Shown: one piece after another, positions 263 through 44,580 of the stretch
Numbering within the stretch: position 1 is the first letter of the stretch
How the letters are laid out: each line of letters opens with the position of its first letter
From: a virus
Taxonomy: Duplodnaviria; Heunggongvirae; Uroviricota; Caudoviricetes
DNA length: 64,000 nucleotides
IMG/VR virus record: IMGVR_UViG_3300033121_000168
Location: 1-64,000 of that record
Reading direction: 5' to 3' (one strand)
Program-made: the position numbers and the translations under genes
The notes under the pieces: model-generated
What the model saw: only the letters and a program-made list of their open reading frames with translations
Told to the model about the DNA's origin: nothing
The model's database searches: none

Positions 263-266
263 ATAA

Positions 267-341
267 TGGTGTGAAACTTTTATGGTGAAGTAGAAAACTT
301 TTAATTTTCAAAACAGGGTTCAAGTCCCTGCACACCAACCA
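267..341 (+). tRNA. tRNA-Lys(TTT)
   Basis: Acceptor TGGTGTG/CACACCA perfectly paired, anticodon arm GAAAA-CTTTTAA-TTTTC, T-arm CAGGGTTCAAGTCCCTG, discriminator A + CCA. Confidence 0.7.
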
Positions 342-13242: not shown

Positions 13243-13317
13243 GGGTAATTCGTATAGAGGTTATTACGGTGGATTGTCGATCCATTTACAGGAGTTCAAT
13301 TCTCCTATTGCCCGCCA
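13243..13317 (+). tRNA. tRNA-Asp(GTC)
   Basis: Acceptor GGGTAAT/ATTGCCC (one G-U), anticodon loop TTGTCGA, T-arm GGAGTTCAATTCTCC, CCA. Confidence 0.6.
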
Positions 13318-13322
13318 AACTT

Positions 13323-13398
13323 GCCTGAATAGCTCAGATGGTAGAGCGATTCCCTGAAGAGGAATGCGTCGGAGGTTCGAATCCTTCTTCTGGCACCA
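13323..13398 (+). tRNA. tRNA-Phe(GAA)
   Basis: D-arm AGCTCAGATGGTAGAGCG, anticodon arm ATTCC-CTGAAGA-GGAAT, T-arm GGAGGTTCGAATCCTTC; one acceptor mismatch. Confidence 0.75.
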
Positions 13399-13483
13399 AA
13401 GAAAATGCATGTTGTTTGGCTACAACAAACACTAATCAAGAATGATGACGATACTTGACATTGAAGTGGAAAGCTTCTATAAT

Positions 13484-13555
13484 AGAGACTTAGCACAGAG
13501 GTAGTGCGGCTCCTTTACACGGAGTAGGTCATAGGTTCGATCCCTATAGTCTCTA
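13484..13555 (+). tRNA. tRNA-Val(TAC)
   Basis: Acceptor AGAGACT/AGTCTCT, anticodon loop TTTACAC, T-arm ATAGGTTCGATCCCTAT; CCA not encoded. Confidence 0.7.
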
Positions 13556-13559
13556 CAAT

Positions 13560-13635
13560 GTCGATATAGTTTAGTTGGTTAGAACAGGAGACTTTCAATC
13601 TCCAAAGTCGGGTTCGATCCCCGATATCGACTCCA
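13560..13635 (+). tRNA. tRNA-Glu(TTC)
   Basis: Acceptor GTCGATA/TATCGAC, anticodon arm GGAGA-CTTTCAA-TCTCC, T-arm TCGGGTTCGATCCCCGA, CCA. Confidence 0.8.
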
Positions 13636-13647
13636 GAATTTTTAGGT

Positions 13648-13720
13648 GTGACTATAACTCAACTGGTTAGAGTTTCAGGTTGTGACCCTGAATGTGAGAG
13701 TTCAAGTCTCTCTAGTCACC
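13648..13720 (+). tRNA. tRNA-His(GTG)
   Basis: Acceptor GTGACTA/TAGTCAC, anticodon arm TCAGG-TTGTGAC-CCTGA, T-arm GAGAGTTCAAGTCTCTC. Confidence 0.75.
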
Positions 13721-13733
13721 CCTAAGAGTTTAA

Positions 13734-13809
13734 TGCGGGATAACTCAGTTGGTAGAGTGCGAGGCTCATAACCTTGATGTCGTCGGTTCGAATCCGGCTC
13801 CCGCAACCA
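13734..13809 (+). tRNA. tRNA-Met(CAT), elongator-type (or Ile2 via lysidine)
   Basis: Acceptor TGCGGGA/TCCCGCA fully paired, anticodon loop CTCATAA, T-arm GTCGGTTCGAATCCGGC, CCA. Confidence 0.75.
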
Positions 13810-13816
13810 GAATTGA

Positions 13817-13892
13817 TGCCGGTTAGCTCAGTTGTTAGAGCACTCGCTTGATAAGCGATAGGTCGTTGGTTAGAGTCCAACACTGGCAACCA
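13817..13892 (+). tRNA. tRNA-Ile(GAT)
   Basis: Acceptor TGCCGGT/ACTGGCA, D-arm GCTCAGTTGTTAGAGC, anticodon loop TTGATAA, CCA. Confidence 0.7.
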
Positions 13893-13922
13893 TTTGATGG
13901 GTCTTTATTTAAAAGATCTTGT

Positions 13923-14000
13923 TGGCGAGTAGAATAGTTTGGCCTAATTCAAGCGGCTTTGACCCGCTGATCGTTGGTTCGAATCCAACCTCGTCTGCCA
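13923..14000 (+). tRNA. tRNA-Gln(TTG), acceptor first pair U1-U72 mismatch
   Basis: Anticodon arm AGCGG-CTTTGAC-CCGCT, T-arm GTTGGTTCGAATCCAAC, acceptor TGGCGAG/CTCGTCT (6/7 pairs), CCA. Confidence 0.55.
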
Positions 14001-14007
14001 AATTTGT

Positions 14008-14093
14008 TCCGTTGTAGGAGAATTGGTAAATCCAGCACACTGTTAATGTGCCACTTAATTGTACTGTAGGTTCGAAGCCTACCAACGGAGCCA
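14008..14093 (+). tRNA. tRNA with anticodon GTT (Asn) but type-II length (86 nt, 14-nt variable region)
   Basis: Acceptor TCCGTTG/CAACGGA perfect, anticodon arm GCACA-CTGTTAA-TGTGC, extra CACTTAATTGTACT before T-arm GTAGGTTCGAAGCCTAC, CCA. Confidence 0.55.
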
Positions 14094-14095
14094 AA

Positions 14096-14317
14096 ATTTC
14101 AATACAGCTAGACCGGCCAGTCGAAAAGAATCAATTTTCAAATACAATTCCTCTTGAAGTTGAACATATTGATGGTAATAGTCAAAATAATGTAGAATCA
14201 AATTTAACCTTACTTTGTCCAAATTGTCACTCATTGACTAAAACTTATAAATCTTTGAATAAAGGTAATGGGGGATATAGTAGAATGAAAAGGTATAGAG
14301 AAGGTAAAAGTTATTAA
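14096..14317 (+). pseudogene. HNH homing-endonuclease remnant (C-terminal HNH motif only, no canonical start)
   Basis: In-frame translation ...EVEHIDGNSQNNVESNLTLLCPNCHSLTKTYKS... carries the HNH core; the frame opens inside the upstream tRNA with no ATG/GTG/TTG, only a possible ATT at 14096 after a GGAG. Confidence 0.5.
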
Positions 14318-14401
14318 GCTGGGTTAGCATAGTGGGAGTGCAACGGTTTTGTAATCCGTCGAAGAAATTCAAAGGGTGTTCGATTCACCCACTCAGCACC
14401 A
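14318..14401 (+). tRNA. tRNA with anticodon TGT (Thr) but 84 nt long (14-nt variable hairpin, U31-U39 mismatch)
   Basis: Acceptor GCTGGGT/ACTCAGC, anticodon arm ACGGT-TTTGTAA-TCCGT, variable CGAAGAAATTCAAA (GAA/TTC hairpin), T-arm GGGTGTTCGATTCACCC, CCA. Confidence 0.5.
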
Positions 14402-14410
14402 ATTTATAAT

Positions 14411-14487
14411 GCGTGTATGGTGTTTAACGGCTAACATCTCTGGCTTCCACCCAGAAGTTCTCGGTTCGAATCCGAGTACCCGCACCA
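14411..14487 (+). tRNA. tRNA-Gly(TCC)
   Basis: Anticodon arm TCTGG-CTTCCAC-CCAGA, T-arm CTCGGTTCGAATCCGAG, acceptor GCGTGTA/TACCCGC (one mismatch), CCA. Confidence 0.7.
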
Positions 14488-14491
14488 GAAT

Positions 14492-14588
14492 TACAGTATG
14501 GCCGAGTGACTAGGCAGCGAATTGCTCCTACATAAGTAGGAAAAGTCAAACTCGCTTCAGGCTGGTTAAAATCCAGTTACTGTATCCA
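14492..14588 (+). tRNA. tRNA-like gene (Ser-type TGGCCGAG D-arm) with a 31-nt insertion in the anticodon arm; possibly interrupted or pseudo
   Basis: Acceptor TACAGTA/TACTGTA perfect, D-arm GCCGAGTGACTAGGC, T-arm GCTGGTTAAAATCCAGT, CCA. The only 5-bp anticodon-stem pairing (AGCGA/TCGCT) encloses 31 nt (ATTGCTCCTACATAAGTAGGAAAAGTCAAAC) with an internal hairpin, not a 7-nt loop. Confidence 0.4.
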
Positions 14589-14593
14589 AATTA

Positions 14594-14679
14594 GGAGTAA
14601 TGGCGAAATGGTAGCCGCAAGAGTTTGCTAAACTCTCGTTAGAAATGGCGTGTAGGTTCAAGTCCTACTTACTCCGCCA
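14594..14679 (+). tRNA. tRNA-Ser(GCT), type II
   Basis: Acceptor GGAGTAA/TTACTCC perfect, anticodon arm AGAGT-TTGCTAA-ACTCT, long variable arm, T-arm GTAGGTTCAAGTCCTAC, CCA. Confidence 0.75.
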
Positions 14680-14688
14680 ATATGAATT

Positions 14689-14777
14689 AGAGTGTAGCTA
14701 CAAAGGGTACAAACAGGACTTGAAATCCTGGCTACTGTAGAGATACGGTAAGGGTTCGATTCCTTTACACTCTGCCA
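14689..14777 (+). tRNA. tRNA-Ser(TGA), type II
   Basis: Acceptor AGAGTGT/ACACTCT perfect, anticodon arm CAGGA-CTTGAAA-TCCTG, long variable arm, T-arm AAGGGTTCGATTCCTTT, CCA. Confidence 0.75.
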
Positions 14778-14784
14778 TAAATTA

Positions 14785-14870
14785 GGATGAGTAGACTCGT
14801 AAGGAGCGAGGACAGCCTGTAAAGCTGTTGTCTATCGGCCAGCTTGGATCGTTACCAAGGTCATCCACCA
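14785..14870 (+). tRNA. tRNA-Tyr(GTA), type II
   Basis: Anticodon arm ACAGC-CTGTAAA-GCTGT, long variable arm, T-arm CTTGGATCGTTACCAAG, acceptor GGATGAG/GTCATCC, CCA. Confidence 0.65.
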
Positions 14871-14876
14871 ATAAAT

Positions 14877-14953
14877 GGGGTCGCATGTACCAAGGGCGGC
14901 GAAGGAGGTTTGCACCTTTCTTGTGGTGAGTTCGATTCTCACTGGCTCCACCA
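14877..14953 (+). tRNA. tRNA-Ala(TGC) with G3-U70 identity pair
   Basis: Acceptor GGGGTCG/TGGCTCC including the G3-U70 wobble, anticodon loop TTTGCAC, T-arm GTGAGTTCGATTCTCAC, CCA. Confidence 0.7.
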
Positions 14954-14955
14954 AT

Positions 14956-15031
14956 CTTCATATAGCGCAGTTGGTAGCGCGTTTGCTTTGGGAGCATAAG
15001 GTCGAAGGTTCGAATCCTTCTATGAAGACCA
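14956..15031 (+). tRNA. tRNA-Pro(TGG)
   Basis: Acceptor CTTCATA/TATGAAG perfect, D-arm GCGCAGTTGGTAGCGC, anticodon loop TTTGGGA (G37), T-arm GAAGGTTCGAATCCTTC, CCA. Confidence 0.75.
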
Positions 15032-15038
15032 AATTAAA

Positions 15039-15122
15039 GCCTCGGTGGTGGAATGGTATACACACTGCGCTAAGAACGCAGCGCCGAAGGGATTGAGGGT
15101 TCGACTCCCTCCTGAGGCACCA
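15039..15122 (+). tRNA. tRNA-Leu, type II, anticodon read as AAG (unusual A34)
   Basis: Acceptor GCCTCGG/CTGAGGC, anticodon arm CTGCG-CTAAGAA-CGCAG, variable arm GCCGAAGGGATTG, T-arm GAGGGTTCGACTCCCTC, CCA; paralog of the tRNA at 176. Confidence 0.65.
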
Positions 15123-17324: not shown

Positions 17325-17852
17325 ATGATTTATAATTCAAACTCTACAGGCCCTTTTAAAATTCTGCAAAGGAATGGTGATGCTTGTTTAATTCAGTTTA
17401 TAGACACCGGCACCACCAAAACTGCTTGTATTTCTAATATATTAGCTGGTAAAGTAAAAGACCAATATTTCCCTACTGTGTATGGTAAGGGGTATTATGG
17501 GGATTACGACAAGACCACGACTTATTACAAGCAGGCTAAACAGCTTTGGCAAAATATGCTAAAAAGATGTTATTGCGAAAAAGACTTAAAAGGTTACTAT
17601 GGTAAAGCAACAGTATCACAAAGATGGCTGAACTTTAGCAATTTCCTAGAGGATTTACCTAGCCTTGTAAACTTTAAGCAGTGGCTTGCTGGACAACAAA
17701 AAACAGGCGGGAAATATAATCTGGATAAAGATTTAAAGGTAAAAGGTAATACCTGTTACTGTAAAGAAGCCTGTATGTTCGTAACTGAGTTTGAAAATAA
17801 ATCAGAGGGCGCTAAAAATGGCAAACCTTATACTAAAATGGGCAAGAGTTAA
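17325..17852 (+). CDS. hypothetical protein next to the second intron-like element; possible intron-associated endonuclease/DNA-binding protein
   Basis: 175 aa with its own GGAG RBS; W-x2-M-x2-RC-Y motif (LWQNMLKRCY) and Tyr/Lys-rich regions reminiscent of DNA-binding modules in homing endonucleases; the position mirrors intron-encoded ORFs. Confidence 0.4.
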   Translation: MIYNSNSTGPFKILQRNGDACLIQFIDTGTTKTACISNILAGKVKDQYFPTVYGKGYYGDYDKTTTYYKQAKQLWQNMLKRCYCEKDLKGYYGKATVSQRWLNFSNFLEDLPSLVNFKQWLAGQQKTGGKYNLDKDLKVKGNTCYCKEACMFVTEFENKSEGAKNGKPYTKMGKS

Positions 17853-18056: not shown

Positions 18057-19505
18057 ATGGAAACAAAAGTAGAAAAAGGATTAGATGATCCTAATCGTTT
18101 TAAGCTTTCTGAGATGGGATACATTGGATTAAATATCTTTGATGGTATTACTTCGGATGAACTAAAGAAGGAATTGAATTTCCCTTATAATCTAAAGACA
18201 TATAAACAAATGTCAGTTCATTCTACAATTAATTCAGCTTTAACTTTATATGACAACATTATCAGTAAAGCTAATTGGGTTGTAAGACCTCCAGAATCAC
18301 CTACTCAGGAAGAAAAAGATCAGACTAAATTCATTGAAGAATGTATGCAAGATATGGAACATTCTTGGTCTGAATTTATTCAAGAAGCTTTAAGTATGAC
18401 CACTTTTGGTTTTTCTGTGCATGAAAAAGTCTACCGTAGACGATTTTCTTCTAATGGTAGTAAATATAATGATGGTAAAATTGGTTGGAAAAAGATTCCA
18501 ATTCGTTGCCAGGAAAGTATTACTAGATTTATTTATTCAGAAGATGGAAATGACTTAGTTGGTGTTAAACAGAATGTTTCTGCTTTACAAGATCCAATGA
18601 ATCGCTACAAGAATAAGACTGAAGTTGCTTTTCCAATTTCTAAAGTTCTTCTCTTTAGAACTGGTCGTCATAGAGGTGATCCATTTGGTAAGAGTCCCTT
18701 GCGTGATGCTTATCTAGCATGGAGATACTTGATGGCTTTGGAAGAAATTGAAGCTACTGGAGTTACTAAGGATTTGCAAGGATTTCCGGTTCTGTACCTG
18801 CCACCTCAGTACTTAGCATCAGATGCCACACCAGAACAGAAGACTATTCGTACATACTATGAGCAGTCTATGGCTAATCTTCAAATGAATCAGCAGTCTG
18901 CTATGATTCTTCCACAAGCATTCGATCCTGATACAAAGCAGCCTTTGTTCAAGATGGAGCTTTTAAGCGTCTCTGGTCAAAAGGGCTTTGACACAGTAAA
19001 AATTAAAGAATACTATAAAAATTTAATCCTTACTTCATTATTCGCGGATATTCTAATCATGGGTCAAAGTACTACAGGTAGTTTTGCACTTGGTCAGATT
19101 AAAAATAGTCTTACAGGTACTGCTGCTGAATCTTTTATTTCCACTATTAGGGATGTAATCAATAAAGATCTGATCCGCCAGACTTACGAATTGAATGGTT
19201 GGGATGCTTCAAGAGCTTGTGTAATTGATTATGAAAACATTGATAGTGTAGATGCTGAAACATTCTCTAAGGCAATTCAACGTATTGCTTCAGTAGGATT
19301 CTTGACGAAAGACCTTGACACTATTAATAAGATTAGAAATGTATTAGGTACAGATGAACTTCCTGAGGGGACAGATTTTGAATCTTTACTTAGTGATATC
19401 ACATCCAGGTCTGGTGATGGGATGAGTAAAGGGTCAGGAAATGGAACAAGCGATGTAGTTGCTTCAACTGATACCTCTTCCAATAATGCAAATAATGCGA
19501 GTTAA
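18057..19505 (+). CDS. portal protein
   Basis: 482 aa, AAGGAT RBS, downstream of terminase; size and composition typical of siphovirus portals, acidic C-terminus. Confidence 0.65.
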   Translation: METKVEKGLDDPNRFKLSEMGYIGLNIFDGITSDELKKELNFPYNLKTYKQMSVHSTINSALTLYDNIISKANWVVRPPESPTQEEKDQTKFIEECMQDMEHSWSEFIQEALSMTTFGFSVHEKVYRRRFSSNGSKYNDGKIGWKKIPIRCQESITRFIYSEDGNDLVGVKQNVSALQDPMNRYKNKTEVAFPISKVLLFRTGRHRGDPFGKSPLRDAYLAWRYLMALEEIEATGVTKDLQGFPVLYLPPQYLASDATPEQKTIRTYYEQSMANLQMNQQSAMILPQAFDPDTKQPLFKMELLSVSGQKGFDTVKIKEYYKNLILTSLFADILIMGQSTTGSFALGQIKNSLTGTAAESFISTIRDVINKDLIRQTYELNGWDASRACVIDYENIDSVDAETFSKAIQRIASVGFLTKDLDTINKIRNVLGTDELPEGTDFESLLSDITSRSGDGMSKGSGNGTSDVVASTDTSSNNANNAS

Positions 19506-19507
19506 TT

Positions 19508-20062
19508 ATGAAATGTCCAAAAGCACTTTTAGATAATGATTTAAATGTAAAAAATCATTTATCTACAATAAAAAATAATGGTCTTGGTCCAGCAGATCCT
19601 ACTGTTTCAAATGATGATTTTTGGAATAATAAATCTAAGATTTGGAGCATATCAACTGGTGATGCTAGGTCAAGACTATGCATGAATTGTGAACACTATT
19701 TGAATACTTCTTTTATTAAAGAATGTATAGATAGTGGTCCGGCTAAAACAATAAAAGCTTCTGATCTTCCACTTACTCCAAAATGGAAAGATATTGAATC
19801 AAAACCAGTTGCATTTTGTACATTATATGAAATTACTTGTAGTCCACTTAGAACTTGTGATTCTCAAGAAGAAGGTGGACCCATAGATGATTTAAAATTG
19901 AAAGCAATTCAGTTTGGTAAATTTATTGAAGAACTTGGATTGGATTTAAATGAAATTGATGACACAGAAGTAGTGAAATCAGTTAAACTTTTAAAAAGTT
20001 GCAAATCTGTTAAAACTAAAGTATCTGATATGATTAAAAAGAAGTACTCAGATAATAAATAA
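19508..20062 (+). CDS. hypothetical Cys-rich protein
   Basis: 184 aa, start 3 nt after the portal stop. Confidence 0.5.
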   Translation: MKCPKALLDNDLNVKNHLSTIKNNGLGPADPTVSNDDFWNNKSKIWSISTGDARSRLCMNCEHYLNTSFIKECIDSGPAKTIKASDLPLTPKWKDIESKPVAFCTLYEITCSPLRTCDSQEEGGPIDDLKLKAIQFGKFIEELGLDLNEIDDTEVVKSVKLLKSCKSVKTKVSDMIKKKYSDNK

Positions 20063-20073
20063 GGAAAAATAAT

Positions 20074-23000
20074 ATGCCTAATGTAAGTGAAACTAGACTT
20101 GGTATTGATGGTAAATTAAGTGTAGAATTTTCAGGAGGTACTTCTGATGTTATTGATTTATCTCGTGCAGTAGCTGGAGTTTATGATCCAGTTACTGATA
20201 AAGTAAATCTGAATTCTAATTCAGTATCTGTTCTTTCTACAGCAGTTCCTACTCGTACTCCAAAAGCTCCTAGTAGTGGAGATTGGTATGTTCAGGAAGA
20301 TCAACAACTTCATGTTATTGCAGGAAGCCCTCTTGATTTCTCATCATATGTAAAAACTGCAATTCCTGCTGGGAGTAAAGGTTATGTAACCGCATCGGGT
20401 GATAACTTAATTGAGAATGGTGTAGTTGTCAAATTTAATGTAGCCACCTGGGCACCTGATAGTGGATTTTATTGGATTCCAGCTTCTAATTCTGAAGTTA
20501 CTGCTGCATTAGAACATCTTGTTCGTTCAGGATATAATGCTTTACGAATTCATGGAGTTGAAAATTTACTTCTTTCAGGAACTGATGGTGAATGGAATGT
20601 AAATACATCTATTCTTGATCGATTTGATTTTGTATTGTCAGAAGCAAAACGAGTTGGTCTTTATTGGATTCATAATCCAATGAATTGGTGGTTAGGTAAA
20701 GATATGGATGGTGCCACTGATCGATTTGCACCTAGCCATTCTGATGGTGGATATAAAACTCGTATTTATACTCATCAAAATATTAGAGATCACTGGTTAT
20801 CTGGATTGAATATTATTTACAATCGAATTAATCCATATACGGGTCTTAATATTTTAACTGATCCAGCAACATTGATGATTGAGTTATTTAATGAAACTGA
20901 TATCAATTATCTTGCTACAGTAAATAATGCAAGTAATAAATTTCCAGTAGCATTTCTTACTAGAGATTCAGGTGCAACTGCTGCTGCAAAGACATGGAGT
21001 GAATGGATTTCAGATACTTCTCAATTGCATGGTTATACTGATATTGCTGCATTGAATACTTCTTGGGGTACTGCATATGCTGATTTTGCTGCTGCTGGAG
21101 CTGCTGTACTTCCTAATAATTGTTTGACAGGTTCAGCACCATCAACTAACATTGGTATTGATATTTCAATGTACTCTACATATCTTGATGATCATTTGGC
21201 AAGTTTTTATGTATCAGTAGCTAACTCACTCGGTTTGAAATGTTTATTATCTCAGTATACAACAGCAATTCATTCATTACTTGCATATAGAGGTATTTCA
21301 AGTCAAGCATCTAATAGTGTAGTTAATTTACATGCATATCCTGTTTTGGCAGATGCTGGTTTAGATGTTGGATCTGTTATCAATAAGGGCGGTACTCCCG
21401 CAAATATTCCTTTATGGCATTCTACAAACAGAAATGGATTTGCTTCTACTCTTTGGCAAGCTGGCGGAAAACCTCTTTGGTTTGGTGAATATGGTTTCCC
21501 AAGTTGGGCTAAATATCGAGCACAATTTCCTATTTGGGTAGCTGCTATGATTCAAAATAATGCGGCTGGCGTCAGTTATTTTTGTCAAGGAAGGTTCTGG
21601 GAAAAAGATTACAAGCTTCTTTCAAATGGTACTACAGCTCAAAGATTTGGTAGAGTATATCCTTATGCTGGTCATGGTGATCCCTGTGCTCACTATAATG
21701 CTGTAATGATTGCTATTCTTCAACAAGGTGGAGTTATGACAAGTCAAACTTCAAAAGTTGATTATATAATTAACCCAAGATCTTTTGGATGGTATTCATC
21801 AGGTGGTGTAATTACTCGTACAGCAGGACGAAATGCAAGACTTCATGGCGGATTATATCGTCCAATGATGTATAATTCTCTTGTAAATCGTTGCAATATT
21901 CAATATGATCCAAGTATTACTTCAACAGATGATAATTATGCATCTGTAAACCTTGCTAGATCTTGGAAACAGTTCTTAGGTGATTTTACTCCTGTTAAAG
22001 CTATTTCTGGAGTACTAATTTCTGGATCATACGGCGGTGTTACAGCATCAGCAACTGCTCCAATCTTAACATTATCTTCTCCATTGTATTCAAATACAGT
22101 TACTGGAGATAAGATTCTTATTACTAATTTGACTGGTTCTGGTGGAACATGGCCTGGAACAACTTTAGCTCAAACTGCATGCACAATTACTGTTATTGAT
22201 TCTCAACACGTACAGGTTACGTCTGGTTTAAATCTTACAGGTACATCTGGATTTACTTCTGGTACATATTGTGAAGCTGCTGAACACTTCACATCTATGT
22301 ATAATAATAGTGGTAATATCCTTACAGTTTCAACAACTGGAACATTCTTTGGAGCTACTGCAACCACTACAAGTCCAGTTCTTACTCTTGGTGCAAATGG
22401 TGGCAGTACAGGAACTACTTCATTAGTCACTGGTGACGAATTCTTTATCACTAACTTAACTGGAACTGGGGGAACAGGTGGTTCATGGCCAGGAACAGGA
22501 TTTAAAAATTCAACACTCACTGTTACTGTTTTAGATACTGCAACTAATACTGTACAAGTTACTATTTCTTCTGCACTTCCATCTGGATTATCTAGTGTTG
22601 TCCCAACTGCTGGAACATGGAATGAAGGTTTGAACATTGTTGAAGGACGATTTAGAGAATGGGGTATTTCTAGTAGAAAACAATGTGCTTGGATTAATAC
22701 TCCAAAACTTGTTGCATTTTCACATGCTTCTGCTACAACTTTCCCAGTGACTTATCAAAATGTTACATTCTCAGCATTGACGAATGATTCTAATATTTTT
22801 GTTGCTTCTCTTGATGGACTTCCATTAACTACTTCTAAAAAGATTTTAGTTGGAATGGTAAATGATGCACAAAATAGTGGAATGAAATTTAGTGATGGTT
22901 CAGCAAGAACGACTATTGCCTCAGGTGGACAATATCCAATTCAGTTGAGTGATAGTTATTCAAAGTTTACTCTTGCAAGAACTTCTTATGGTAATCCAAA

Positions 23001-23130
23001 GATTACTCCACTTGGAATTTCTGGTGCAAGGTTGTCTAAACCAAGTAAACTTGTAGTTGACGCAACCAATATTACTGTTGAAGTACAGAATTCAGTTGCT
23101 GATTCTATTTTCTGGTTAATTGAAATCTAA
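20074..23130 (+). CDS. large tail spike/fiber-like protein with glycoside-hydrolase-like central domain and conserved N-terminal anchor
   Basis: 1018 aa. N-terminal MPNVSETRLGIDGKLSVEFSGGTSDVIDL is homologous to the N-terminus of the ORF at 43215. Central region resembles a (beta/alpha)8 glycosidase (..IHGVENLL..WIHNPMNWW..LFNETD). C-terminal Gly/Thr-rich beta repeats. Confidence 0.55.
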   Translation: MPNVSETRLGIDGKLSVEFSGGTSDVIDLSRAVAGVYDPVTDKVNLNSNSVSVLSTAVPTRTPKAPSSGDWYVQEDQQLHVIAGSPLDFSSYVKTAIPAGSKGYVTASGDNLIENGVVVKFNVATWAPDSGFYWIPASNSEVTAALEHLVRSGYNALRIHGVENLLLSGTDGEWNVNTSILDRFDFVLSEAKRVGLYWIHNPMNWWLGKDMDGATDRFAPSHSDGGYKTRIYTHQNIRDHWLSGLNIIYNRINPYTGLNILTDPATLMIELFNETDINYLATVNNASNKFPVAFLTRDSGATAAAKTWSEWISDTSQLHGYTDIAALNTSWGTAYADFAAAGAAVLPNNCLTGSAPSTNIGIDISMYSTYLDDHLASFYVSVANSLGLKCLLSQYTTAIHSLLAYRGISSQASNSVVNLHAYPVLADAGLDVGSVINKGGTPANIPLWHSTNRNGFASTLWQAGGKPLWFGEYGFPSWAKYRAQFPIWVAAMIQNNAAGVSYFCQGRFWEKDYKLLSNGTTAQRFGRVYPYAGHGDPCAHYNAVMIAILQQGGVMTSQTSKVDYIINPRSFGWYSSGGVITRTAGRNARLHGGLYRPMMYNSLVNRCNIQYDPSITSTDDNYASVNLARSWKQFLGDFTPVKAISGVLISGSYGGVTASATAPILTLSSPLYSNTVTGDKILITNLTGSGGTWPGTTLAQTACTITVIDSQHVQVTSGLNLTGTSGFTSGTYCEAAEHFTSMYNNSGNILTVSTTGTFFGATATTTSPVLTLGANGGSTGTTSLVTGDEFFITNLTGTGGTGGSWPGTGFKNSTLTVTVLDTATNTVQVTISSALPSGLSSVVPTAGTWNEGLNIVEGRFREWGISSRKQCAWINTPKLVAFSHASATTFPVTYQNVTFSALTNDSNIFVASLDGLPLTTSKKILVGMVNDAQNSGMKFSDGSARTTIASGGQYPIQLSDSYSKFTLARTSYGNPKITPLGISGARLSKPSKLVVDATNITVEVQNSVADSIFWLIEI

Positions 23131-23331: not shown

Positions 23332-23691
23332 TTAATACACTTCAATTTGATATTGATTGATAAAATCTTTAAGCCAATCTGCTTCTTTTGTAGAAGAGGT
23401 TAATTGTTGTCGAACTTTGTATTTAGATTTTTTAACAGGAACTTGATCTGTTAATTGTTTCATGAATTGTTTCACCTCTTCATTATCTTCAATATAGATT
23501 GAGATTGAAGTTTGGACATTCATATCGTCAATATTTTTAAGTACTGGGATTAGTACATCTCCGAATGTAAAGGATGAGCAGTTTTCTTTAATTACTTCTT
23601 CACCATCCCAGTATTTAATCTTTACTCGATAATATGAAATATCAAGAAAAGAATCTGTTTTAATGAATACAAGTTTGATGTGATTAGACAT
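23332..23691 (-). CDS. hypothetical protein, lone minus-strand gene inside the plus-strand structural block
   Basis: 119 aa, strong RBS AGGAGA 4 nt upstream of the ATG on the minus strand; divergent from the 23815 gene. Confidence 0.55.
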   Translation of the reverse strand: MSNHIKLVFIKTDSFLDISYYRVKIKYWDGEEVIKENCSSFTFGDVLIPVLKNIDDMNVQTSISIYIEDNEEVKQFMKQLTDQVPVKKSKYKVRQQLTSSTKEADWLKDFINQYQIEVY

Positions 23692-23814: not shown

Positions 23815-24222
23815 ATGCAAGAAATTACAAATAATAAACAAGTTCAGATTATTAAATCATTGAACGAAGAAAAACGTTTAGCTACCTTTGTAGTATTAGA
23901 ACCTCAGGATAATGATGGTTTGACTACTGATTTACACGGTGATACTTACACTGCTGATGCAGTTGAACAAGCTTGTCATGACTTTAATACTCAATGTAGA
24001 AAAGCAAATCTTTTACATATGCTTGATACTGATTCATATGAATTTGTTGAGAGTTATATTCTTCCGGTTGAAGCTGAAATCAATGGAAAAGTTATTAAGG
24101 CTGGAAGTTGGTTAGCTGTTGTTAAAGCTAAAGAAGATTGGATTTGGCAGGGTATTAAAGATGGAACTTTTAACGGTCTTTCTATTCAGTGTAATGCTGT
24201 TTATGAAGATATAACGGAGTAA
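23815..24222 (+). CDS. head morphogenesis protein, possibly a small prohead protease (XkdF/DUF2213-like)
   Basis: 135 aa directly upstream of an acidic scaffold-like gene; ..FVVLEPQDNDGLTTDLHGDTYT.. resembles the N-terminal protease part of XkdF-type proteins; call is tentative. Confidence 0.35.
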   Translation: MQEITNNKQVQIIKSLNEEKRLATFVVLEPQDNDGLTTDLHGDTYTADAVEQACHDFNTQCRKANLLHMLDTDSYEFVESYILPVEAEINGKVIKAGSWLAVVKAKEDWIWQGIKDGTFNGLSIQCNAVYEDITE

Positions 24223-37397: not shown

Positions 37398-37406
37398 GGA
37401 GATTAA

Positions 37407-38483
37407 ATGCCTATCCCAATTTTACCACCAGCACCATCTAGAACTGATCCTGCTAATTTTGCAGTATTAGGTGATGCATGGGTTGCTGCATTACCAGCTT
37501 GGACTGATGCAGCTAATGCTCTCGAACAAAGTTTACAATTGACTGCAACAACAGGTACTTCCACAACCTCTTTAACTATTGGTGCGGGGAGTAAAACTCT
37601 TAATACTCAAACAGGGAAAGTTTGGTCTGTTGGGTCATATCTCTATGTTGTAAGTTCAGTCAGTGTATCTAATTTAATGATTGGGCAAGTAACTGCTTAT
37701 AACTCAGGTACTGGTTCATTAACTGTAAATGTTACTTCGACATCAGGAAGTGGAACAATTTCCAATTGGATACTTGGATTATCAGCACCTTTAGGAAGTT
37801 CAGCATCTTTCTCAGGTACGATATCAGCTTCTGTTTTTCAGCTAGATTCTACTTCTAGTTTATATTTAAGTTCGGGTAATCCTGTACTTCAGTTTGATAC
37901 TGATGATTATCTTAGTTACGATAGAACAAGTAATACTTTGAAAGTAAGAATAGCAACTGTAGAGAAGTTTACGGTAGATGGAACAGATGGTCCTCAACGT
38001 CCAAATGATGCTACAACTGCAAATGGTTTAGTTAGGAAATCACAATTACCAGTGGATGCTACAACTTCAGTTGCTGGTTTAATCAAGAAATCTACCAATA
38101 CAATTACTCAAACTGGTACTGCTACAGATTGTGCAGTTATGCCAGCAGATCTAGCTGCCTCTATGCTTGGTGGTGTTGGTCAAACATATCAGGATGTCAC
38201 GGCATCGCGTGCATTGGGCGTGACCTATACCAACAGCACTGGCCGAATGATCGAGGTTTCGGTATGGATCGGTGGTGGTGGGGCTTCAGGAGTCTACTCG
38301 TCCGTGACCGGAACAGTGGATGGTATCGATATGTACTTCGCGACAAACTCTGACCAAAATGGTGGCGCGTACAACAACCCACCCATGGGTATCACCATGC
38401 GGGTTAAGGCTGGCTCTACCTACAAGGCGTCAGCAGCCCTGACAGGTGGGCAATCTCTCGATAAGTGGGTGGAGTTGCGTTGA
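37407..38483 (+). CDS. tail fiber/receptor-binding protein with mosaic high-GC C-terminal domain
   Basis: 358 aa Ser/Thr/Gly-rich beta protein; the last ~320 nt (38160-38483) have much higher GC than the rest of the window; followed by a chaperone-like gene. Confidence 0.6.
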   Translation: MPIPILPPAPSRTDPANFAVLGDAWVAALPAWTDAANALEQSLQLTATTGTSTTSLTIGAGSKTLNTQTGKVWSVGSYLYVVSSVSVSNLMIGQVTAYNSGTGSLTVNVTSTSGSGTISNWILGLSAPLGSSASFSGTISASVFQLDSTSSLYLSSGNPVLQFDTDDYLSYDRTSNTLKVRIATVEKFTVDGTDGPQRPNDATTANGLVRKSQLPVDATTSVAGLIKKSTNTITQTGTATDCAVMPADLAASMLGGVGQTYQDVTASRALGVTYTNSTGRMIEVSVWIGGGGASGVYSSVTGTVDGIDMYFATNSDQNGGAYNNPPMGITMRVKAGSTYKASAALTGGQSLDKWVELR

Positions 38484-40929: not shown

Positions 40930-41593
40930 ACAACTTCAAGTTTGTACTGGAGCAAATAAATCGAATGCTGAAGTATTCCTACCTTATATTAAAGAAGTTT
41001 GTAAGTCTTTTGGAATTAATACTCCTAAAAGGCTTGCAGCTTTTTTATCTCAAGTTGGGCATGAATCAGCAGGGTTATCTTGTTTACAAGAGAATTTGAA
41101 CTACAGCGCAGACGGATTAGCTAATACATGGCCTAACAGGTACGCTAAAACGCTGCAAAACGGCGTATACGCTAAAAATCCAGTTGGGAGATACCTACCC
41201 TCAGACCTAGCCTTAAAAATCGCTAGAAAGCCTGTTTTAATCGCTAACAACTGCTATGCAAATCGAATGGGTAATGGGAATGAGAGTTCAGGTGATGGTT
41301 GGAAGTTTAGAGGTAGAGGACTTAAGCAATTAACTGGAAAGTCTAATTATGTTCAACTTACTCTTGAAACGGGTATTAATTTTGTTTCTAATCCTGATCT
41401 TCTTTTACAACCTTCTTATGGAGTTATTTCTGCCTGTGTATTCTGGAAAATAAATAATCTTGAATATTATGCAGATAAAGAAGATATTGAAGGTTTGACT
41501 AAGAAGATCAATGGTGGATTAAATGGAATAAAAAATCGTAAAGCTTTATTTGATAAAGCTATTGAAATTTTACAGAAAGGTTATAATGAATAA
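40907..41593 (+). CDS. endolysin, glycoside hydrolase family 19 (chitinase-like lysozyme)
   Basis: ..LAAFLSQVGHESAGLSCLQENLNYSADGL.. matches the GH19 catalytic region (Q-x-x-H-E-S/T); 228 aa. Confidence 0.8.
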   Translation: MLENLTIEQLQVCTGANKSNAEVFLPYIKEVCKSFGINTPKRLAAFLSQVGHESAGLSCLQENLNYSADGLANTWPNRYAKTLQNGVYAKNPVGRYLPSDLALKIARKPVLIANNCYANRMGNGNESSGDGWKFRGRGLKQLTGKSNYVQLTLETGINFVSNPDLLLQPSYGVISACVFWKINNLEYYADKEDIEGLTKKINGGLNGIKNRKALFDKAIEILQKGYNE

Positions 41594-43205
41594 TTTAAGT
41601 AAATTTATAGCAGCTTTACTTTGTTCGATTTCGATCATTGCTATTGCTTGTGTTGATCCTGTTCCAGCTACGAATCCTTCAGTTCCTCCTGTCACAGTTG
41701 GAACAACTTATCATGTTCGTACTGATGGTGGTAATATTAATCAATGTAATGGTAAGGTGAATGCTGCATATATTCAAGGATCAACGAGTAAGGATTGTGC
41801 ATGGAGTAACCCTATGCAAGCTTTACCTGCTTATGGTACACCTAAAATCTCTGGCGGGGATACTCTAATCATTCATCAAGGCCAATACAAGGTTGGATAT
41901 GGGGCTACTTCTGGTGCTGAAAAGTGTAACATAGCTTATTCTTGGGACTGTCAGATGCTTGCAATTCCGTCAGGCCCTGATCAAGAACACCCTACTGTAA
42001 TAACAGGTCAGGATATGTCTGGGAGTTGTCAAAATAAACCAACTCTTTGGGGTTCTCAAAGAGCATACAGAATAATTGGACTTGAGAAGAGTAGCAATGT
42101 AAGAGTGCAATGTCTAGAAATAACAGACAAGAGTTCGTGTGTTGACGGTCATTCAAAACAAGATCAAAAATGCAACAGAACTTTATACCCTTACGGTGAT
42201 TGGTCCCCAAATGGGATTAATGCTTATGACAGTAGTAATGTAACCTTGAAAGATTTAGACATACATGGTCTTGCTATCAACGGTATCAATGCTGGAAGGC
42301 TTAAAGATTGGACATTGCAGTCTGTCAGGATTGCGGCCAATGGGTGGGCAGGTTGGAACGGAGATATTGGTAGTAGTAGTAGTAACTCTGGGACAATTAA
42401 ATTATCTAAGGTAATTATAGAATGGAATGGATGCGCCGAAACAGTTGGTTCTAACCCCTCTCCAACTGCTTGCTGGGGTCAATCTGCTGGTGGATATGGT
42501 GATGGTTTAGGTACAGCCGCTACAGGGGGTAATTGGATAATCGAAGACTCTAAGTTCCTACATAATACTTCTGATGGTTTAGATTTGTTGTATGCAAATG
42601 GAACTGGGTCAGTTACTTTGGATAGGGTTTGGGCTGAGGGGAATGCTGGGAATCAAATCAAGATTGGAGGACCATCCCTAGTTCAGAATACCGTGGTTGT
42701 AGGTAACTGTGGATTCTTTGATAAGCAATCCTTTACGTTCAATGTAGATAACTGTAGAGCGAATGGTGATAGTCTTGCGTTTTCTTTAAAGAATACAACT
42801 GATGTGGCTTCTTTAGTGAATTCTACATTTGTTAGTCAAGGTAATGTAGCGATCTTAGTTGTAGGGCCTGTGGGGTCTAAAGTTAATTCAATTAACAATA
42901 TACTGGTTGGAAAACCGTACTTTTTAGACAGTACTAAACTCTCTGCTGACAGCTATATTCAAGGACCATCGGTTATAGAATTAGGTAACATCAAATATAA
43001 TCTTAAAAGTATTCGATGTAACTCAACATCGGTACTATGTGTAGATCCAAAGTTAGTTAATGATTCTTTGGTTGGGTTTAATCCTAATCTGACATCAGAA
43101 AGTCCTGCTAAAGATTCAGGAGTATCTCATAGTCTTGTACCTCTGCAAGATTATTTCAATGCTGTAAGAATTGCACCAGATCGTGGTGCTGTAGAATTTA
43201 AATAA
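41586..43205 (+). CDS. secreted/lipoprotein right-handed beta-helix protein (pectate-lyase fold; putative polysaccharide depolymerase)
   Basis: ATG 41586 overlaps the endolysin stop (ATGAATAA); signal peptide with possible lipobox (IIAIAC); repeated beta-helix coil signatures (NTSDGLDLLYANGTGSVTLDRVWAEGNAGNQIKIGG, VVVGNCGFF). Confidence 0.65.
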   Translation: MNNLSKFIAALLCSISIIAIACVDPVPATNPSVPPVTVGTTYHVRTDGGNINQCNGKVNAAYIQGSTSKDCAWSNPMQALPAYGTPKISGGDTLIIHQGQYKVGYGATSGAEKCNIAYSWDCQMLAIPSGPDQEHPTVITGQDMSGSCQNKPTLWGSQRAYRIIGLEKSSNVRVQCLEITDKSSCVDGHSKQDQKCNRTLYPYGDWSPNGINAYDSSNVTLKDLDIHGLAINGINAGRLKDWTLQSVRIAANGWAGWNGDIGSSSSNSGTIKLSKVIIEWNGCAETVGSNPSPTACWGQSAGGYGDGLGTAATGGNWIIEDSKFLHNTSDGLDLLYANGTGSVTLDRVWAEGNAGNQIKIGGPSLVQNTVVVGNCGFFDKQSFTFNVDNCRANGDSLAFSLKNTTDVASLVNSTFVSQGNVAILVVGPVGSKVNSINNILVGKPYFLDSTKLSADSYIQGPSVIELGNIKYNLKSIRCNSTSVLCVDPKLVNDSLVGFNPNLTSESPAKDSGVSHSLVPLQDYFNAVRIAPDRGAVEFK

Positions 43206-43214
43206 GGAGCAATT

Positions 43215-44507
43215 ATGCCACAAATTAGCGAAGTAAAACAAGGTATTGATGGGAAACTGTATGTGGAGTATTCTGACGGTACTACATCAGTTAAAGATTT
43301 GACCTTGACTCAAGCAGATACTTATAAAAGAACAACTCTTTCTTTTGCTGGGGATAGCACATGCCTAACAACTGGCGCAGTATCTTCTGGGACATGGATG
43401 CACTCCTTGACAGTTCCATTTGCTTTTGATAGTGTTAGAGTTGGTTTTGTTTCTGTAGATACTGTTAATTCAGCATCAGGATTGAAGATCTCTGTTGCAT
43501 CTAGTGAAACAGCATTGAACAATGGTACACAATGGCCCATTATTTCTGGATCTAGAAATGATACGGTATGGAGCAATGCTACATTTAATGGTGCAGGAAC
43601 AGGTACTCCAGCAGTTGCTACTTCAACAGCAAATCCATCTATCACATGGACAGATTGGACCCCTTGTAAATCTCTTCCTCGTACAGATGGATTTGGAAAT
43701 TATATTCTATTGTGTCGCGCCTATTTGCCTTCCGCATGGGCTGTTCTACCAGGGTATTCTGCTGTGTGGTCAACTAAAACATCTTCAATTGCTTCAAATT
43801 CTGGTGAAATCTATGAAGTCAGGCAAGTTGGCGCTGATTACATTGCTACACCTTCAGGGTGGTCTAATACAAGTACAGCAGGTGCCTCTCCTGGGTTGAT
43901 CTTTCAGTTCAGAGTTAGACAACCAAACCATTCCCTGGCTTTCTATGGTGACTCAACTTTCCAAGGTTTTGCTGGGACAGCTACTTACTCTTGGGCAGAT
44001 ATGGCTTGTAGAGTACTAGGAGTAATGCATAAAAATGCAGGTTGGTCAGGTCAAACGACCGCACAAACTCTTACAAGACTGAAAGCAGATATCAGTCGTG
44101 GCGAGAAACCTACTTGTATTATGTTTGAATCAGCATCACCAAACGATGCTTCACAATCATATACAACTACAACTTTATATCAAAATAGAGCTTATGTCCT
44201 TGATGTCCTAGATCAGGCTCAGCAGATTGGTGCAGCAGTAATTTTAACTACTCCAATGCCTTACATGGGGACTAACCCAGATGCCAATAACCAAGCAGCG
44301 TATCTTGAGCACTATAGTTGGGTAAAATCACTAGAAACATCAGATGGCAGAGTACAGATTCTTGACTTTTCTTCATTGCATGACACAACTTATCCTGGCA
44401 AATGGAAGTCAGCATATAGTGCAGATGGCTTGCATCCCAATGATACTGCTAAGTCAATAATGAATACTCTAGCTCAAACTGCAATCCGCAACACTCTACA
44501 TGTTTAA
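43215..44507 (+). CDS. SGNH/GDSL hydrolase-domain tail spike-like protein with conserved N-terminal anchor
   Basis: N-terminal MPQISEVKQGIDGKLYVEYSDGTTSVKDL homologous to the 20074 ORF; C-terminal esterase domain with GDS block (AFYGDSTFQGFAG) and DGLHPND catalytic block. Confidence 0.7.
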   Translation: MPQISEVKQGIDGKLYVEYSDGTTSVKDLTLTQADTYKRTTLSFAGDSTCLTTGAVSSGTWMHSLTVPFAFDSVRVGFVSVDTVNSASGLKISVASSETALNNGTQWPIISGSRNDTVWSNATFNGAGTGTPAVATSTANPSITWTDWTPCKSLPRTDGFGNYILLCRAYLPSAWAVLPGYSAVWSTKTSSIASNSGEIYEVRQVGADYIATPSGWSNTSTAGASPGLIFQFRVRQPNHSLAFYGDSTFQGFAGTATYSWADMACRVLGVMHKNAGWSGQTTAQTLTRLKADISRGEKPTCIMFESASPNDASQSYTTTTLYQNRAYVLDVLDQAQQIGAAVILTTPMPYMGTNPDANNQAAYLEHYSWVKSLETSDGRVQILDFSSLHDTTYPGKWKSAYSADGLHPNDTAKSIMNTLAQTAIRNTLHV

Positions 44508-44520
44508 GTAGAGATATGAC

Positions 44521-44580
44521 AAAAGCCCCTAGTGGACCTCTTGGATTATTAGTCCTTGAAGCTCTCTAGGGGCTTTTTCT
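44521..44580. terminator. bidirectional rho-independent terminator between the convergent structural and replication blocks
   Basis: AAAAGCCCCTAG...CTAGGGGCTTTTT long hairpin; a second 9-bp inverted repeat TTAAATTGG/CCAATTAAA follows at 44583-44625. Confidence 0.8.

What the first reader, a model, noticed from the sequence alone, without database searches (positions are those of the whole stretch)
20074..23130. Spike-like 1018-aa protein encoded between portal and head genes shares a conserved N-terminal adaptor with the SGNH-hydrolase spike at 43215
N-termini: MPNVSETRLGIDGKLSVEFSGGTSDVIDL and MPQISEVKQGIDGKLYVEYSDGTTSVKDL. About 70% are identical over the first 30 residues, while the rest of the two proteins are unrelated (glycosidase-like barrel plus Gly/Thr beta repeats versus GDSL esterase). 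This is the signature of interchangeable enzymatic receptor-binding proteins docking to the same virion site. A third candidate depolymerase (beta-helix, 41586-43205) has a signal peptide/lipobox instead of the adaptor and sits right after the endolysin. The phage thus seems to carry a glycosidase, an esterase (e.g. O-acetyl removal) and a lyase-fold protein, which would constitute a three-enzyme surface-polysaccharide processing set. The location of the first spike gene inside the head-gene cluster is atypical.
Basis: partly seen in the sequence, partly recalled or inferred. Interest (0 to 1): 0.6.

Follow-up and report, generated by a model that had tools for sequence, protein, structure and literature searches.

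The report
Swappable phage enzymes sharing one handle
A freshwater phage encodes two unrelated sugar-processing enzymes that begin with the same 30-residue sequence, which probably attaches interchangeable enzymes to one site on the particle; this is a fresh example of a known design, with the genes in an unusual place beside the portal gene.

Summary
The 1018-aa protein (20074-23130) and the 430-aa SGNH esterase (43215-44507) share only their first ~30 residues: 18 of 29 identical (62%, not 70%), BLASTP E=9e-9. Eight of the 18 shared residues use different codons, so selection acts on the protein.

Related metagenomic phages carry the same handle on at least five or six other bodies:
- two more SGNH types
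- several pectate-lyase-like beta-helices
- a protein with tail-fibre repeats
- small knob-like proteins

Near-identical phages differ only in which handle-bearing genes sit between portal and protease.

The 1018-aa core is a GH5-like (clan GH-A) barrel with invariant N273-E274 and E472. It is followed by two small beta-barrel repeats and a beta-sandwich.

Exchangeable virion-attached enzymes are well supported by comparison. Virion attachment and the docking site (tail tip, neck or head) were not shown. In 69 related contigs with a related portal gene, those reaching past it mostly carry variable genes there. This is a new variant of a known kind, of moderate interest.

The parts
20074..20163 (+). 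N-terminal handle of the 1018-aa protein (residues 1-30, MPNVSETRLGIDGKLSVEFSGGTSDVIDLS): an MPxVSE lead followed by a predicted beta-hairpin.
   Evidence: BLASTP E=9e-9 against the 430-aa protein. HMM 55-68 bits. AlphaFold2 places strands at residues 4-9 and 15-19, at low confidence.
20164..20295 (+). Variable linker (residues 31-74) between the handle and the conserved core.
   Evidence: Homologues P0005-P0013 have entirely different sequence before about residue 75. pLDDT is below 50 here.
20296..21993 (+). GH5-like (clan GH-A) TIM-barrel core with invariant N273-E274 (ELFNE) and E472 (GEYG).
   Evidence: Profile against PDB hits GH5 mannanases, best 8gf3_A at E=8e-7. Foldseek hits GH5, GH42 and a beta-mannosidase. 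Invariant columns in 13 homologues. No Pfam or PHROG hit.
22006..22623 (+). Two tandem Gly/Thr-rich small beta-barrel repeats, resembling a domain of ubiquitin-activating enzyme E1.
   Evidence: Internal repeat with 24/46 identical, E=0.003. Foldseek hits to UBA1/UBA6 at E about 0.007-0.02. pLDDT 70-87.
22624..23130 (+). C-terminal beta-sandwich domain and stop codon.
   Evidence: All-beta secondary structure with pLDDT 66-85. By eye, this region resembles the C-terminus of the bacterial relative P0014; no alignment of that region was run.
43215..43304 (+). N-terminal handle of the 430-aa protein (MPQISEVKQGIDGKLYVEYSDGTTSVKDLT).
43305..43916 (+). Uncharacterised domain (residues 31-234) of the 430-aa protein. 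It contains an extra GDS tripeptide at residue 46.
   Evidence: No family hit. Motif positions.
43917..44507 (+). SGNH/GDSL hydrolase domain with GDS at residues 245-247 and DGLH at 404-407.
   Evidence: Pfam PF13472 at 49.8 bits (cut-off 32.9) and PF00657. PDB SGNH hits, 4ppy_A at E=7e-7. Motif positions.
41586..43205 (+). Right-handed parallel beta-helix protein with a signal-like N-terminus ending in Cys (IIAIAC) and no handle. It belongs to a large bacterial family.
18057..19505 (+). Mu-type portal gene, the left border of the variable slot.
   Evidence: Pfam Portal_Mu at E=1e-23. It is 94-98% identical in L002 and L007.
19508..20062 (+). 184-aa ORF in the slot, of unknown function. BLAST found no counterpart in any related locus then held.
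   Evidence: No family hits. No BLAST match in the related loci, where the same position holds a 533-aa SGNH gene or nothing.
23332..23691 (-). 119-aa minus-strand ORF at the right edge of the slot. It is conserved in the subclade and preceded by the best promoter-like match in the region.
   Evidence: 84-85% identical in L002 and L007; 32% in L037, L045 and L107 and 26% in L044. TTGACA-17-TACAAT at 23747-23719.
23815..24222 (+). Head maturation protease (S78 type), the right border of the slot.
   Evidence: PHROG head maturation protease at E=1e-31. Pfam S78_2 is recorded for the orthologue in L002.
37407..38483 (+). 358-aa tail fibre candidate with a different N-terminal sequence (PSRTDPANF...), encoded in the tail module.
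   Evidence: A weak PHROG tail-fibre match to the C-terminus, E=9e-4. Relatives carry two paralogues that share this N-terminus. It resembles the N-terminus of the L038 749-aa protein.
44551..44576 (+). Terminator-like hairpin closing the rightward late operon just after the 430-aa gene.

Best explanation
The 1018-aa GH5-like protein and the 430-aa SGNH esterase are accessory enzymes carried on the phage particle. Each consists of a ~30-residue N-terminal handle (an MPxVSE lead plus one beta-hairpin), a flexible linker and a glycan-processing body.

The handle binds a conserved structural protein of the particle. The body is exchanged by recombination within or next to the handle. Related phages therefore display different enzymes for different host surface polysaccharides on an otherwise unchanged virion.

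These genes sit at two recombination hot spots:
- the slot between the portal and protease genes
- the region around the lysis genes

Shown here:
- the shared module, with selection acting on the protein
- its fusion to many unrelated enzyme and fibre bodies
- cassette replacement between near-identical phages
- the fold classes

Inferred:
- presence in the virion
- binding through the handle
- action on host glycans

The docking site is unresolved. My rough split, given attachment, is 45% tail tip or a branch on the tail fibres, 35% neck or head, and 20% elsewhere.

The beta-helix lipoprotein is most likely a separate, host-derived secreted enzyme and not part of this system.
For: The handle is a distinct unit under protein-level selection:
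- The handle gives E=9e-9 and the rest of the two proteins is unrelated.
- Eight of 18 conserved residues differ by synonymous codons.

The same handle heads other bodies in relatives:
- 533/542-aa SGNH proteins in L002 and L006, and a 414-aa SGNH protein in L037.
- A 661-aa pectate-lyase-like protein in L007 whose first 22 residues are identical to the window's.
- The 422-aa protein P0027, which matches Pfam 'phage tail fiber repeats' (E=1e-10) directly after the handle.
- 481- and 508-aa SGNH proteins, and 577-, 625-, 899- and 652-aa proteins read as beta-helix-like from their sequence only (no family hit), which carry divergent handles.

Cassette replacement on a constant virion:
- L002 and L007 have portal 94-98%, capsid 92-99%, connectors 95-100% and tube 95-97% identical to the window, but different genes in the slot.

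The core travels separately from its N-terminus:
- Homologues of the 1018-aa core in other phage types carry unrelated N-termini.

The hairpin looks like fibre sequence:
- The hairpin half of the handle resembles repeat units of collagen-like fibres and adhesins.

Every body that could be classified is a glycan enzyme or a fibre:
- Some bodies, such as the 137-aa P0023 and the 364-aa L104 protein, remain unclassified. No toxin or nuclease domain was detected.

Precedent:
- Short N-terminal 'conserved peptides' that dock second receptor-binding proteins are documented in Klebsiella, K1-5 and SP6 phages (PMC6872550).
Against: - There are no virion proteomics or imaging data for any handle-bearing protein. 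The papers on the two cultured relatives report only gross siphovirus morphology.
- No docking partner was identified. The tail-tip proteins gave no family or PDB hits, so no adaptor-type domain was seen.
- The structure model of the 1018-aa protein is poor (pLDDT 55), and the handle itself is modelled at pLDDT about 40.
- A TIM-barrel glycosidase on a flexible linker is not the classic trimeric spike.
- Two proteins with the same handle in one genome would compete for one site. Well-studied branched systems instead give each protein its own docking peptide.
- The candidate tail fibres use a different N-terminal sequence. The handle therefore does not use the fibres' own site.
Confidence: 0.6

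Rival explanations
1. Head or neck display. The handle docks onto the capsid, its decoration protein or the portal-proximal connector. The particle then carries many copies of interchangeable enzymes on its head end, while the tail fibres handle final receptor binding. This is a sub-case of virion attachment, listed separately because it is the unusual one.
For: - The gene lies beside the portal inside the head cluster. Most of the 69 related contigs that extend past the portal carry about 1-6 kb of variable genes in this slot.
- Homologues of the GH core also lie among head genes in two unrelated phage types: after the capsid gene in L003, and between portal and coat genes in L031.
- The candidate tail fibres have their own, different N-terminal sequence in the tail module.
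- One, two or more proteins with the same handle per genome fits many equivalent sites better than a few tail-tip sites.
- The first slot protein of DC31-like phages gives weak 'phage cement protein' matches.
Against: - Handle-bearing genes also sit among or after the lysis genes at the end of the structural operon, a usual place for tail receptor-binding genes. The window's own 430-aa gene is there.
- In L032 the GH homologue lies among tail genes.
- The cement-protein matches are below threshold and occur in only 4 of 18 members.
- Gene position alone is weak evidence.
Confidence: 0.2
2. Capsid-targeting sequence. The handle works like the phage T4 internal-protein targeting peptide. It directs the enzymes into the prohead, where the neighbouring protease removes it, and the enzymes are ejected into the host with the DNA.
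For: - An N-terminal position, short length and sharing by unrelated cargo match the T4 targeting-peptide logic (my own knowledge of T4).
- The gene lies between the portal and protease genes, the usual place for internal head proteins of the MuF / SPP1 gp7 kind.
Against: - The classified cargo is entirely extracellular-type glycan enzymes, beta-helices or fibres. One carries tail-fibre repeats directly after the handle.
- The hairpin resembles repeats of external fibres.
- Bodies of up to 1018 aa are large for packaged cargo.
- No cleavage motif was identified.
Confidence: 0.08
3. Soluble enzymes. The proteins are released at lysis and act in free form on surrounding polysaccharide. The shared N-terminus would then serve another purpose, such as oligomerisation, folding or expression, and not attachment to the particle.
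For: - Free depolymerases released at lysis are known for some phages (my own knowledge).
- No docking partner was found.
- The neighbouring beta-helix protein is evidently a secreted, non-virion enzyme.
Against: - The handle stays constant while bodies change on an otherwise identical virion. This is the expected pattern for a structural interface and is not needed for a soluble enzyme.
- The handle-bearing proteins have no signal peptide.
- The genes sit inside the structural operon.
Confidence: 0.12

Closest known systems
Branched receptor-binding protein systems with short N-terminal 'conserved peptides' (Klebsiella KP32/KP34-type phages, coliphage K1-5/K1E, Salmonella phage SP6, coliphage G7C; reviewed in PMC6872550)
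   Same: Unrelated enzymatic bodies carry a short conserved N-terminal peptide. The bodies are exchanged horizontally while the rest of the virion stays constant. There can be more than one such protein per genome.
   Different: - Those are podoviruses or myoviruses with an identified adaptor (a T4 gp10-like domain), and each protein has its own peptide for its own site.
- Here the phage is a siphovirus and no adaptor was found.
- The same handle, 62% identical, is used by both proteins.
- The main gene slot is beside the portal, not beside the tail fibre genes.
- The bodies include a GH5-like barrel and SGNH esterases as well as beta-helices.
Phage T4 capsid-targeting sequence of internal proteins
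   Same: A short N-terminal tag is shared by unrelated proteins in one genome, and the genes lie near head-assembly genes.
   Different: The T4 tag is about 10 residues, is cleaved by the prohead protease, and carries small anti-host proteins. Here the cargo is large extracellular-type glycan enzymes and fibres.
Non-tail-tip appendages: phi29 pre-neck appendages (beta-helix enzymes on the collar), head spikes of the Rhodobacter gene transfer agent, neck fibres of cyanophage A-1(L) (PMC7296036 and PMC10966104 were listed but not read; details are from my own knowledge)
   Different: No sequence relationship to the handle was found, and no evidence here places the proteins on the head or neck. 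This is an analogy only.
GH5 beta-mannanases and mannosidases (clan GH-A)
   Same: The profile aligns across the strand-4 'NE' acid/base motif and, weakly, the strand-7 Glu nucleophile. Fold hits are to GH5, GH42 and a beta-mannosidase.
   Different: - There is no Pfam GH5 match.
- Identity to the matched structures is 10-18%.
- The barrel is much larger, about 560 residues with long insertions.
- It is followed by two small beta-barrels and a beta-sandwich.
- The word-indexed search of 5.8 billion sequences returned 14 proteins, the query among them.

Membership tests
Receptor-binding proteins / depolymerases with a conserved N-terminal docking peptide | The N-terminus is conserved between otherwise unrelated proteins of one phage or lineage. 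| tested here: met
   E=9e-9 for residues 1-41 only. The same module heads at least five or six other bodies.
Receptor-binding proteins / depolymerases with a conserved N-terminal docking peptide | The distal body is exchanged between closely related phages. | tested here: met
   The window, L002 and L007 share 92-100% identical head, neck and tube proteins but carry different slot genes.
Receptor-binding proteins / depolymerases with a conserved N-terminal docking peptide | The protein is a structural component of the virion. | not testable with these tools
   No proteomics exists for this lineage.
Receptor-binding proteins / depolymerases with a conserved N-terminal docking peptide | An identifiable adaptor or docking domain is present in a partner protein, for example a T4 gp10-like domain. 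| tested here: inconclusive
   The 308-aa and 358-aa tail proteins give no Pfam, NCBIfam or PDB hits. No structure-based search of them was possible.
Glycoside hydrolase clan GH-A (GH5-like) | A (beta/alpha)8 barrel. | tested here: inconclusive
   An alternating strand/helix pattern and Foldseek hits to GH5 at E=3e-5 to 1e-3. However the model has pLDDT 55 and TM-scores of 0.3-0.47.
Glycoside hydrolase clan GH-A (GH5-like) | A conserved Asn-Glu acid/base motif on strand 4 and a Glu nucleophile on strand 7. | tested here: met
   ELFNE aligns to ELANE of GH5 mannanases. N273, E274 and E472 are invariant in 13 homologues.
Glycoside hydrolase clan GH-A (GH5-like) | A match to a curated GH5 family model. 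| tested here: not met
   No Pfam, PHROG or NCBIfam hit. Relatedness shows only with a family profile against PDB (E=8e-7).
SGNH/GDSL hydrolase | A family model match above the curated cut-off. | tested here: met
   PF13472 at 49.8 bits against 32.9, and PF00657 at 38.6 against 23.6.
SGNH/GDSL hydrolase | A catalytic Ser in a GDS block and a DxxH block. | tested here: met
   GDS at residues 245-247 and DGLH at 404-407.
Pectate-lyase-like right-handed beta-helix (the 539-aa protein) | A right-handed parallel beta-helix fold. | tested here: met
Pectate-lyase-like right-handed beta-helix (the 539-aa protein) | It is a phage tailspike, that is, a virion-anchored trimer with an N-terminal anchor. 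| tested here: not met
   It has no handle. It starts with a signal-like segment ending in Cys. Its family is bacterial, named 'choice-of-anchor Q' or 'right-handed parallel beta-helix'.
T4-type capsid-targeting sequence | The tag is removed by the prohead protease and the cargo is found inside the capsid. | not testable with these tools
   Indirect evidence only: the classified cargo types are extracellular enzymes and fibres.

The most novel reading that the evidence does not exclude
This lineage of freshwater siphoviruses mounts interchangeable glycan-degrading enzymes on the head or neck, not on the tail tip. A 30-residue beta-hairpin handle would add onto a capsid, decoration or connector protein. 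The portal-adjacent slot would be the lineage's cassette site for such head-end enzymes. The particle could then clear or hold onto capsule or slime with its head end, while separate tail fibres find the true receptor.
Probability: 0.2. Interest if true: 0.7.

Novelty: new variant of a known kind. Interest (0 to 1): 0.45.

Why it matters
Modular receptor-binding proteins set phage host range. Their attachment handles are what allow new specificities to be swapped in, both in nature and in engineering.

This handle is short, matched no Pfam, PHROG or NCBIfam model, and is already seen on glycosidase, esterase, beta-helix and fibre bodies. It belongs to an abundant but barely studied group of freshwater phages, relatives of Limnohabitans phage DC31 and Curvibacter phage P26059A.

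If the docking site proves to be on the head or neck, siphoviruses would join the few known cases of enzymes displayed away from the tail tip. If it is on the tail, this is one more example of a well-known design.

Tried and rejected
- **Handle alone against the 5.8-billion-sequence database.** The accepted one found no candidates, because the word filter is unsuited to a 45-residue query. The exhaustive representative search replaced it.
- **Relatives of the 430-aa protein and of the 308-aa tail protein in viral contigs.** These gave nothing or only two loci.
- **Reaching the parts of the 80-kb source contig outside the window.** Two edge genes returned only short contigs from other samples.
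- **Sharing of the alternative N-termini of GH homologues within their own contigs.** None was found in L003 or L031-L034.
- **Is the first slot protein of DC31-like phages a capsid cement protein?** Only 4 of 18 members gave sub-threshold Pfam matches, and the PDB profile search found nothing. This stays a weak lead.
- **PDB sequence searches.** The 308-aa and 358-aa tail proteins, the L007 661-aa protein and the beta-helix protein gave nothing useful.
- **Chance similarity or a recent DNA duplication.** Rejected on the E-value, the synonymous differences, and recurrence across many genomes.
- **Nucleotide search against known phages.** Only a 445-bp terminase segment matched, at 77% to phage DC31.
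Full report
**Setting**

The window is most of a low-GC (about 36%) phage genome from a metagenome.
- The rightward late operon runs in this order:
  - large terminase
  - HNH endonuclease
  - Mu-type portal (18057-19505)
  - a 184-aa ORF
  - the 1018-aa gene (20074-23130)
  - a 119-aa gene on the opposite strand
  - S78-type protease
  - a 304-aa scaffold-like gene
  - lambda-D-like decoration protein
  - E-type major capsid protein
  - four connector proteins
  - a 403-aa tube protein and chaperones
  - a 1906-aa tape measure
  - a 308-aa tail protein and a 358-aa fibre-like protein
  - small membrane proteins
  - a homing endonuclease
  - a GH19 endolysin
  - the 539-aa beta-helix protein
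  - the 430-aa SGNH protein
- A terminator-like hairpin follows at 44551-44576. Replication genes then converge on the other strand.
- The nearest cultured phages by portal identity are Limnohabitans phage DC31 (63%) and Curvibacter phage P26059A (53%). Both are siphoviruses by electron microscopy.

**The observation**

- The two proteins align only at residues 1-41: 21 of 41 identical, E=9e-9.
- Over the first 29 residues, 18 are identical (62%). Eight of those 18 use different codons.
- Nucleotide identity falls from 63% in the handle to 36% just after it.
- A gapped DNA alignment shows similarity starting at the stop/ribosome-site sequence TAAATAAGGA.
- No other reading frame in the window carries the motif.

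**What the handle is**

The handle heads other bodies in related contigs.

In the portal-protease slot:
- L002, L006 and L009 hold a 533-542-aa SGNH protein and a 1013/1014-aa GH protein, both with the handle (in L009 the second gene is cut off by the contig end).
- L007 holds a single 661-aa pectate-lyase-like protein whose first 22 residues are identical to the window's.
- L037 holds a 414-aa SGNH protein, then a 422-aa protein that matches Pfam 'phage tail fiber repeats' (E=1e-10) directly after the handle. A 1007-aa beta-helix protein without the handle follows.

Around the lysis genes, in more distant relatives (L010, L011, L038):
- Divergent handles sit on SGNH and beta-helix-like proteins placed among or just after the lysis genes.
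- This is the same region where the window's 430-aa gene lies.

Distribution and character:
- An exhaustive profile search of 1.84 billion representative proteins gave 18 hits at E<=0.001.
- Five were single N-terminal matches:
  - three SGNH proteins, one of them the window's own 430-aa protein
  - the fibre-repeat protein
  - a 137-aa protein
- The other 13 were multi-stretch matches. The four inspected carry a similar hairpin as a repeat unit, two of them a collagen-like fibre and a Rib-like adhesin.
- The second half of the handle is therefore a generic fibre-type beta-hairpin, and MPxVSE is the specific lead.
- Every body that could be classified is a glycan-type enzyme or a fibre; a few short ones remain unclassified.

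**Cassette exchange**

- L002 and L007 have portal, capsid, connector and tube proteins 92-100% identical to the window.
- Their slot content differs:
  - the window has the 184-aa ORF plus GH
  - L002 has SGNH-533 plus GH
  - L007 has the beta-helix-661 alone
- Their tail and lysis regions carry no further handle-bearing gene. Handle-bearing proteins therefore number one, two or more per genome.
- Conversely, the conserved core of the 1018-aa protein (from about residue 75) occurs in other phages behind unrelated N-termini:
  - P22-like podovirus contigs
  - a MuF-encoding phage
- Handle and body thus evolve as separate units.

**The bodies**

The 1018-aa protein:
- It has no Pfam, PHROG or NCBIfam match.
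- The word-indexed search returned 14 proteins, the query among them.
- A profile of the 13 phage-type sequences matches GH5 mannanases in PDB across the 'NE' motif, best E=8e-7.
- N273, E274 and E472 are invariant.
- The AlphaFold2 model is weak (pLDDT 55). Its Foldseek hits are nevertheless GH5, GH42 and a beta-mannosidase. The Gly/Thr repeats hit a small domain of ubiquitin-activating enzyme E1.
- The repeats are a real duplication.

The 430-aa protein:
- It has a C-terminal SGNH domain above Pfam cut-offs, with GDS and DxxH blocks.

The 539-aa protein:
- It has no handle and begins with a signal-like segment ending in Cys.
- It has more than 2,200 homologues. The 120 best listed are 44-63% identical, and those with a source name come from bacterial genomes, including Ideonella and Aquabacterium.
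- I read it as a host-derived secreted or lipid-anchored enzyme, not a spike.

**Where the handle might dock**

This is not resolved.

For the head or neck:
- The slot beside the portal is a lineage-wide feature. In 69 related viral contigs, most of those that extend past the portal carry about 1-6 kb of variable genes between portal and protease.
- Those genes include cadherin-like and beta-helix proteins and fibre-like proteins.
- GH homologues sit among head genes in two unrelated phage types.
- The tail module encodes its own candidate fibres with a different shared N-terminus, PSRTDPxNF.
- Variable numbers of proteins with one handle suit many equivalent sites.

For the tail:
- The second hot spot is the usual place for receptor-binding genes, at the end of the structural operon by the lysis genes.
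- One GH homologue lies among podovirus tail genes.

No partner domain was detected.

**Comparison with known systems**

- The closest known design is the short N-terminal 'conserved peptide' that docks second receptor-binding proteins in Klebsiella, K1-5 and SP6 phages (PMC6872550).
- The differences are:
  - the siphovirus context
  - one handle shared by several proteins
  - the portal-adjacent gene slot
  - the GH5-like and SGNH bodies
- A T4-style capsid-targeting tag and free soluble enzymes remain possible but less likely.

**Verdict**

- This is a new variant of a known kind, of moderate interest.

Noticed in passing
window 176-341 and 13243-15122: Seventeen tRNA genes in two clusters. 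The larger cluster, 15 genes, lies just upstream of the terminase.
   Followed up: no
window 23332-23691 (minus strand): A 119-aa gene of unknown function sits alone on the opposite strand inside the late operon, at the right edge of the variable slot. It is conserved in the handle-bearing subclade and in L044, L045 and L107. The best promoter-like match in the region precedes it.
   Followed up: partly
window 17325-17852 and 39827-40417: Two endonuclease genes interrupt the structural and lysis modules: an HNH type between terminase and portal, and a homing type before the endolysin. Relatives carry similar insertions at other positions.
   Followed up: no
L110 and L111, 12005-14284: The closest relatives carry two tail-fibre paralogues (353 and 399 aa) that share their own N-terminus, MLPILPxAPSRTDPTNFSA. 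The window has one such gene (37407-38483). This is a second, independent shared-N-terminus system in the same phages.
   Followed up: partly
window 36471-38483: The tail tip looks minimal: after the 1906-aa tape measure come only a 308-aa protein and a 358-aa fibre, with no recognisable hub or central spike gene.
   Followed up: partly
L001 17710-19146; L039 4084-4959; about 20 loci: In DC31- and P26059A-like phages, the first gene after the portal encodes a protein of about 465 aa (291 aa in P26059A). By eye it has a ChaB-like N-terminus, an internal hairpin of the same style (for example AEFDAQGHLVILMSDGRKVVT) and a variable C-terminus. It gives weak 'phage cement' matches.
   Followed up: partly
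window 41586-43205: Among the bacterial homologues of the beta-helix protein are proteins from Ideonella and Aquabacterium genomes (53% and 47-49% identical). This fits a Burkholderiales host, in line with the cultured relatives.
   Followed up: no
window 43350-43358 (residue 46 of the 430-aa protein): A second GDS tripeptide (FAGDS) lies in the uncharacterised N-terminal half, upstream of the recognised SGNH domain. It could be chance or the remnant of a duplicated or split domain.
   Followed up: no
L031, L032, L003: The GH5-like core occurs with unrelated N-termini in P22-like podovirus contigs and in a MuF-encoding phage. The enzyme body therefore moves between very different phage types.
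   Followed up: partly
window 1638-2540: A 300-aa protein with a Band_7 (SPFH) domain is encoded in the early region. The identical protein was found on eight short contigs.
   Followed up: no
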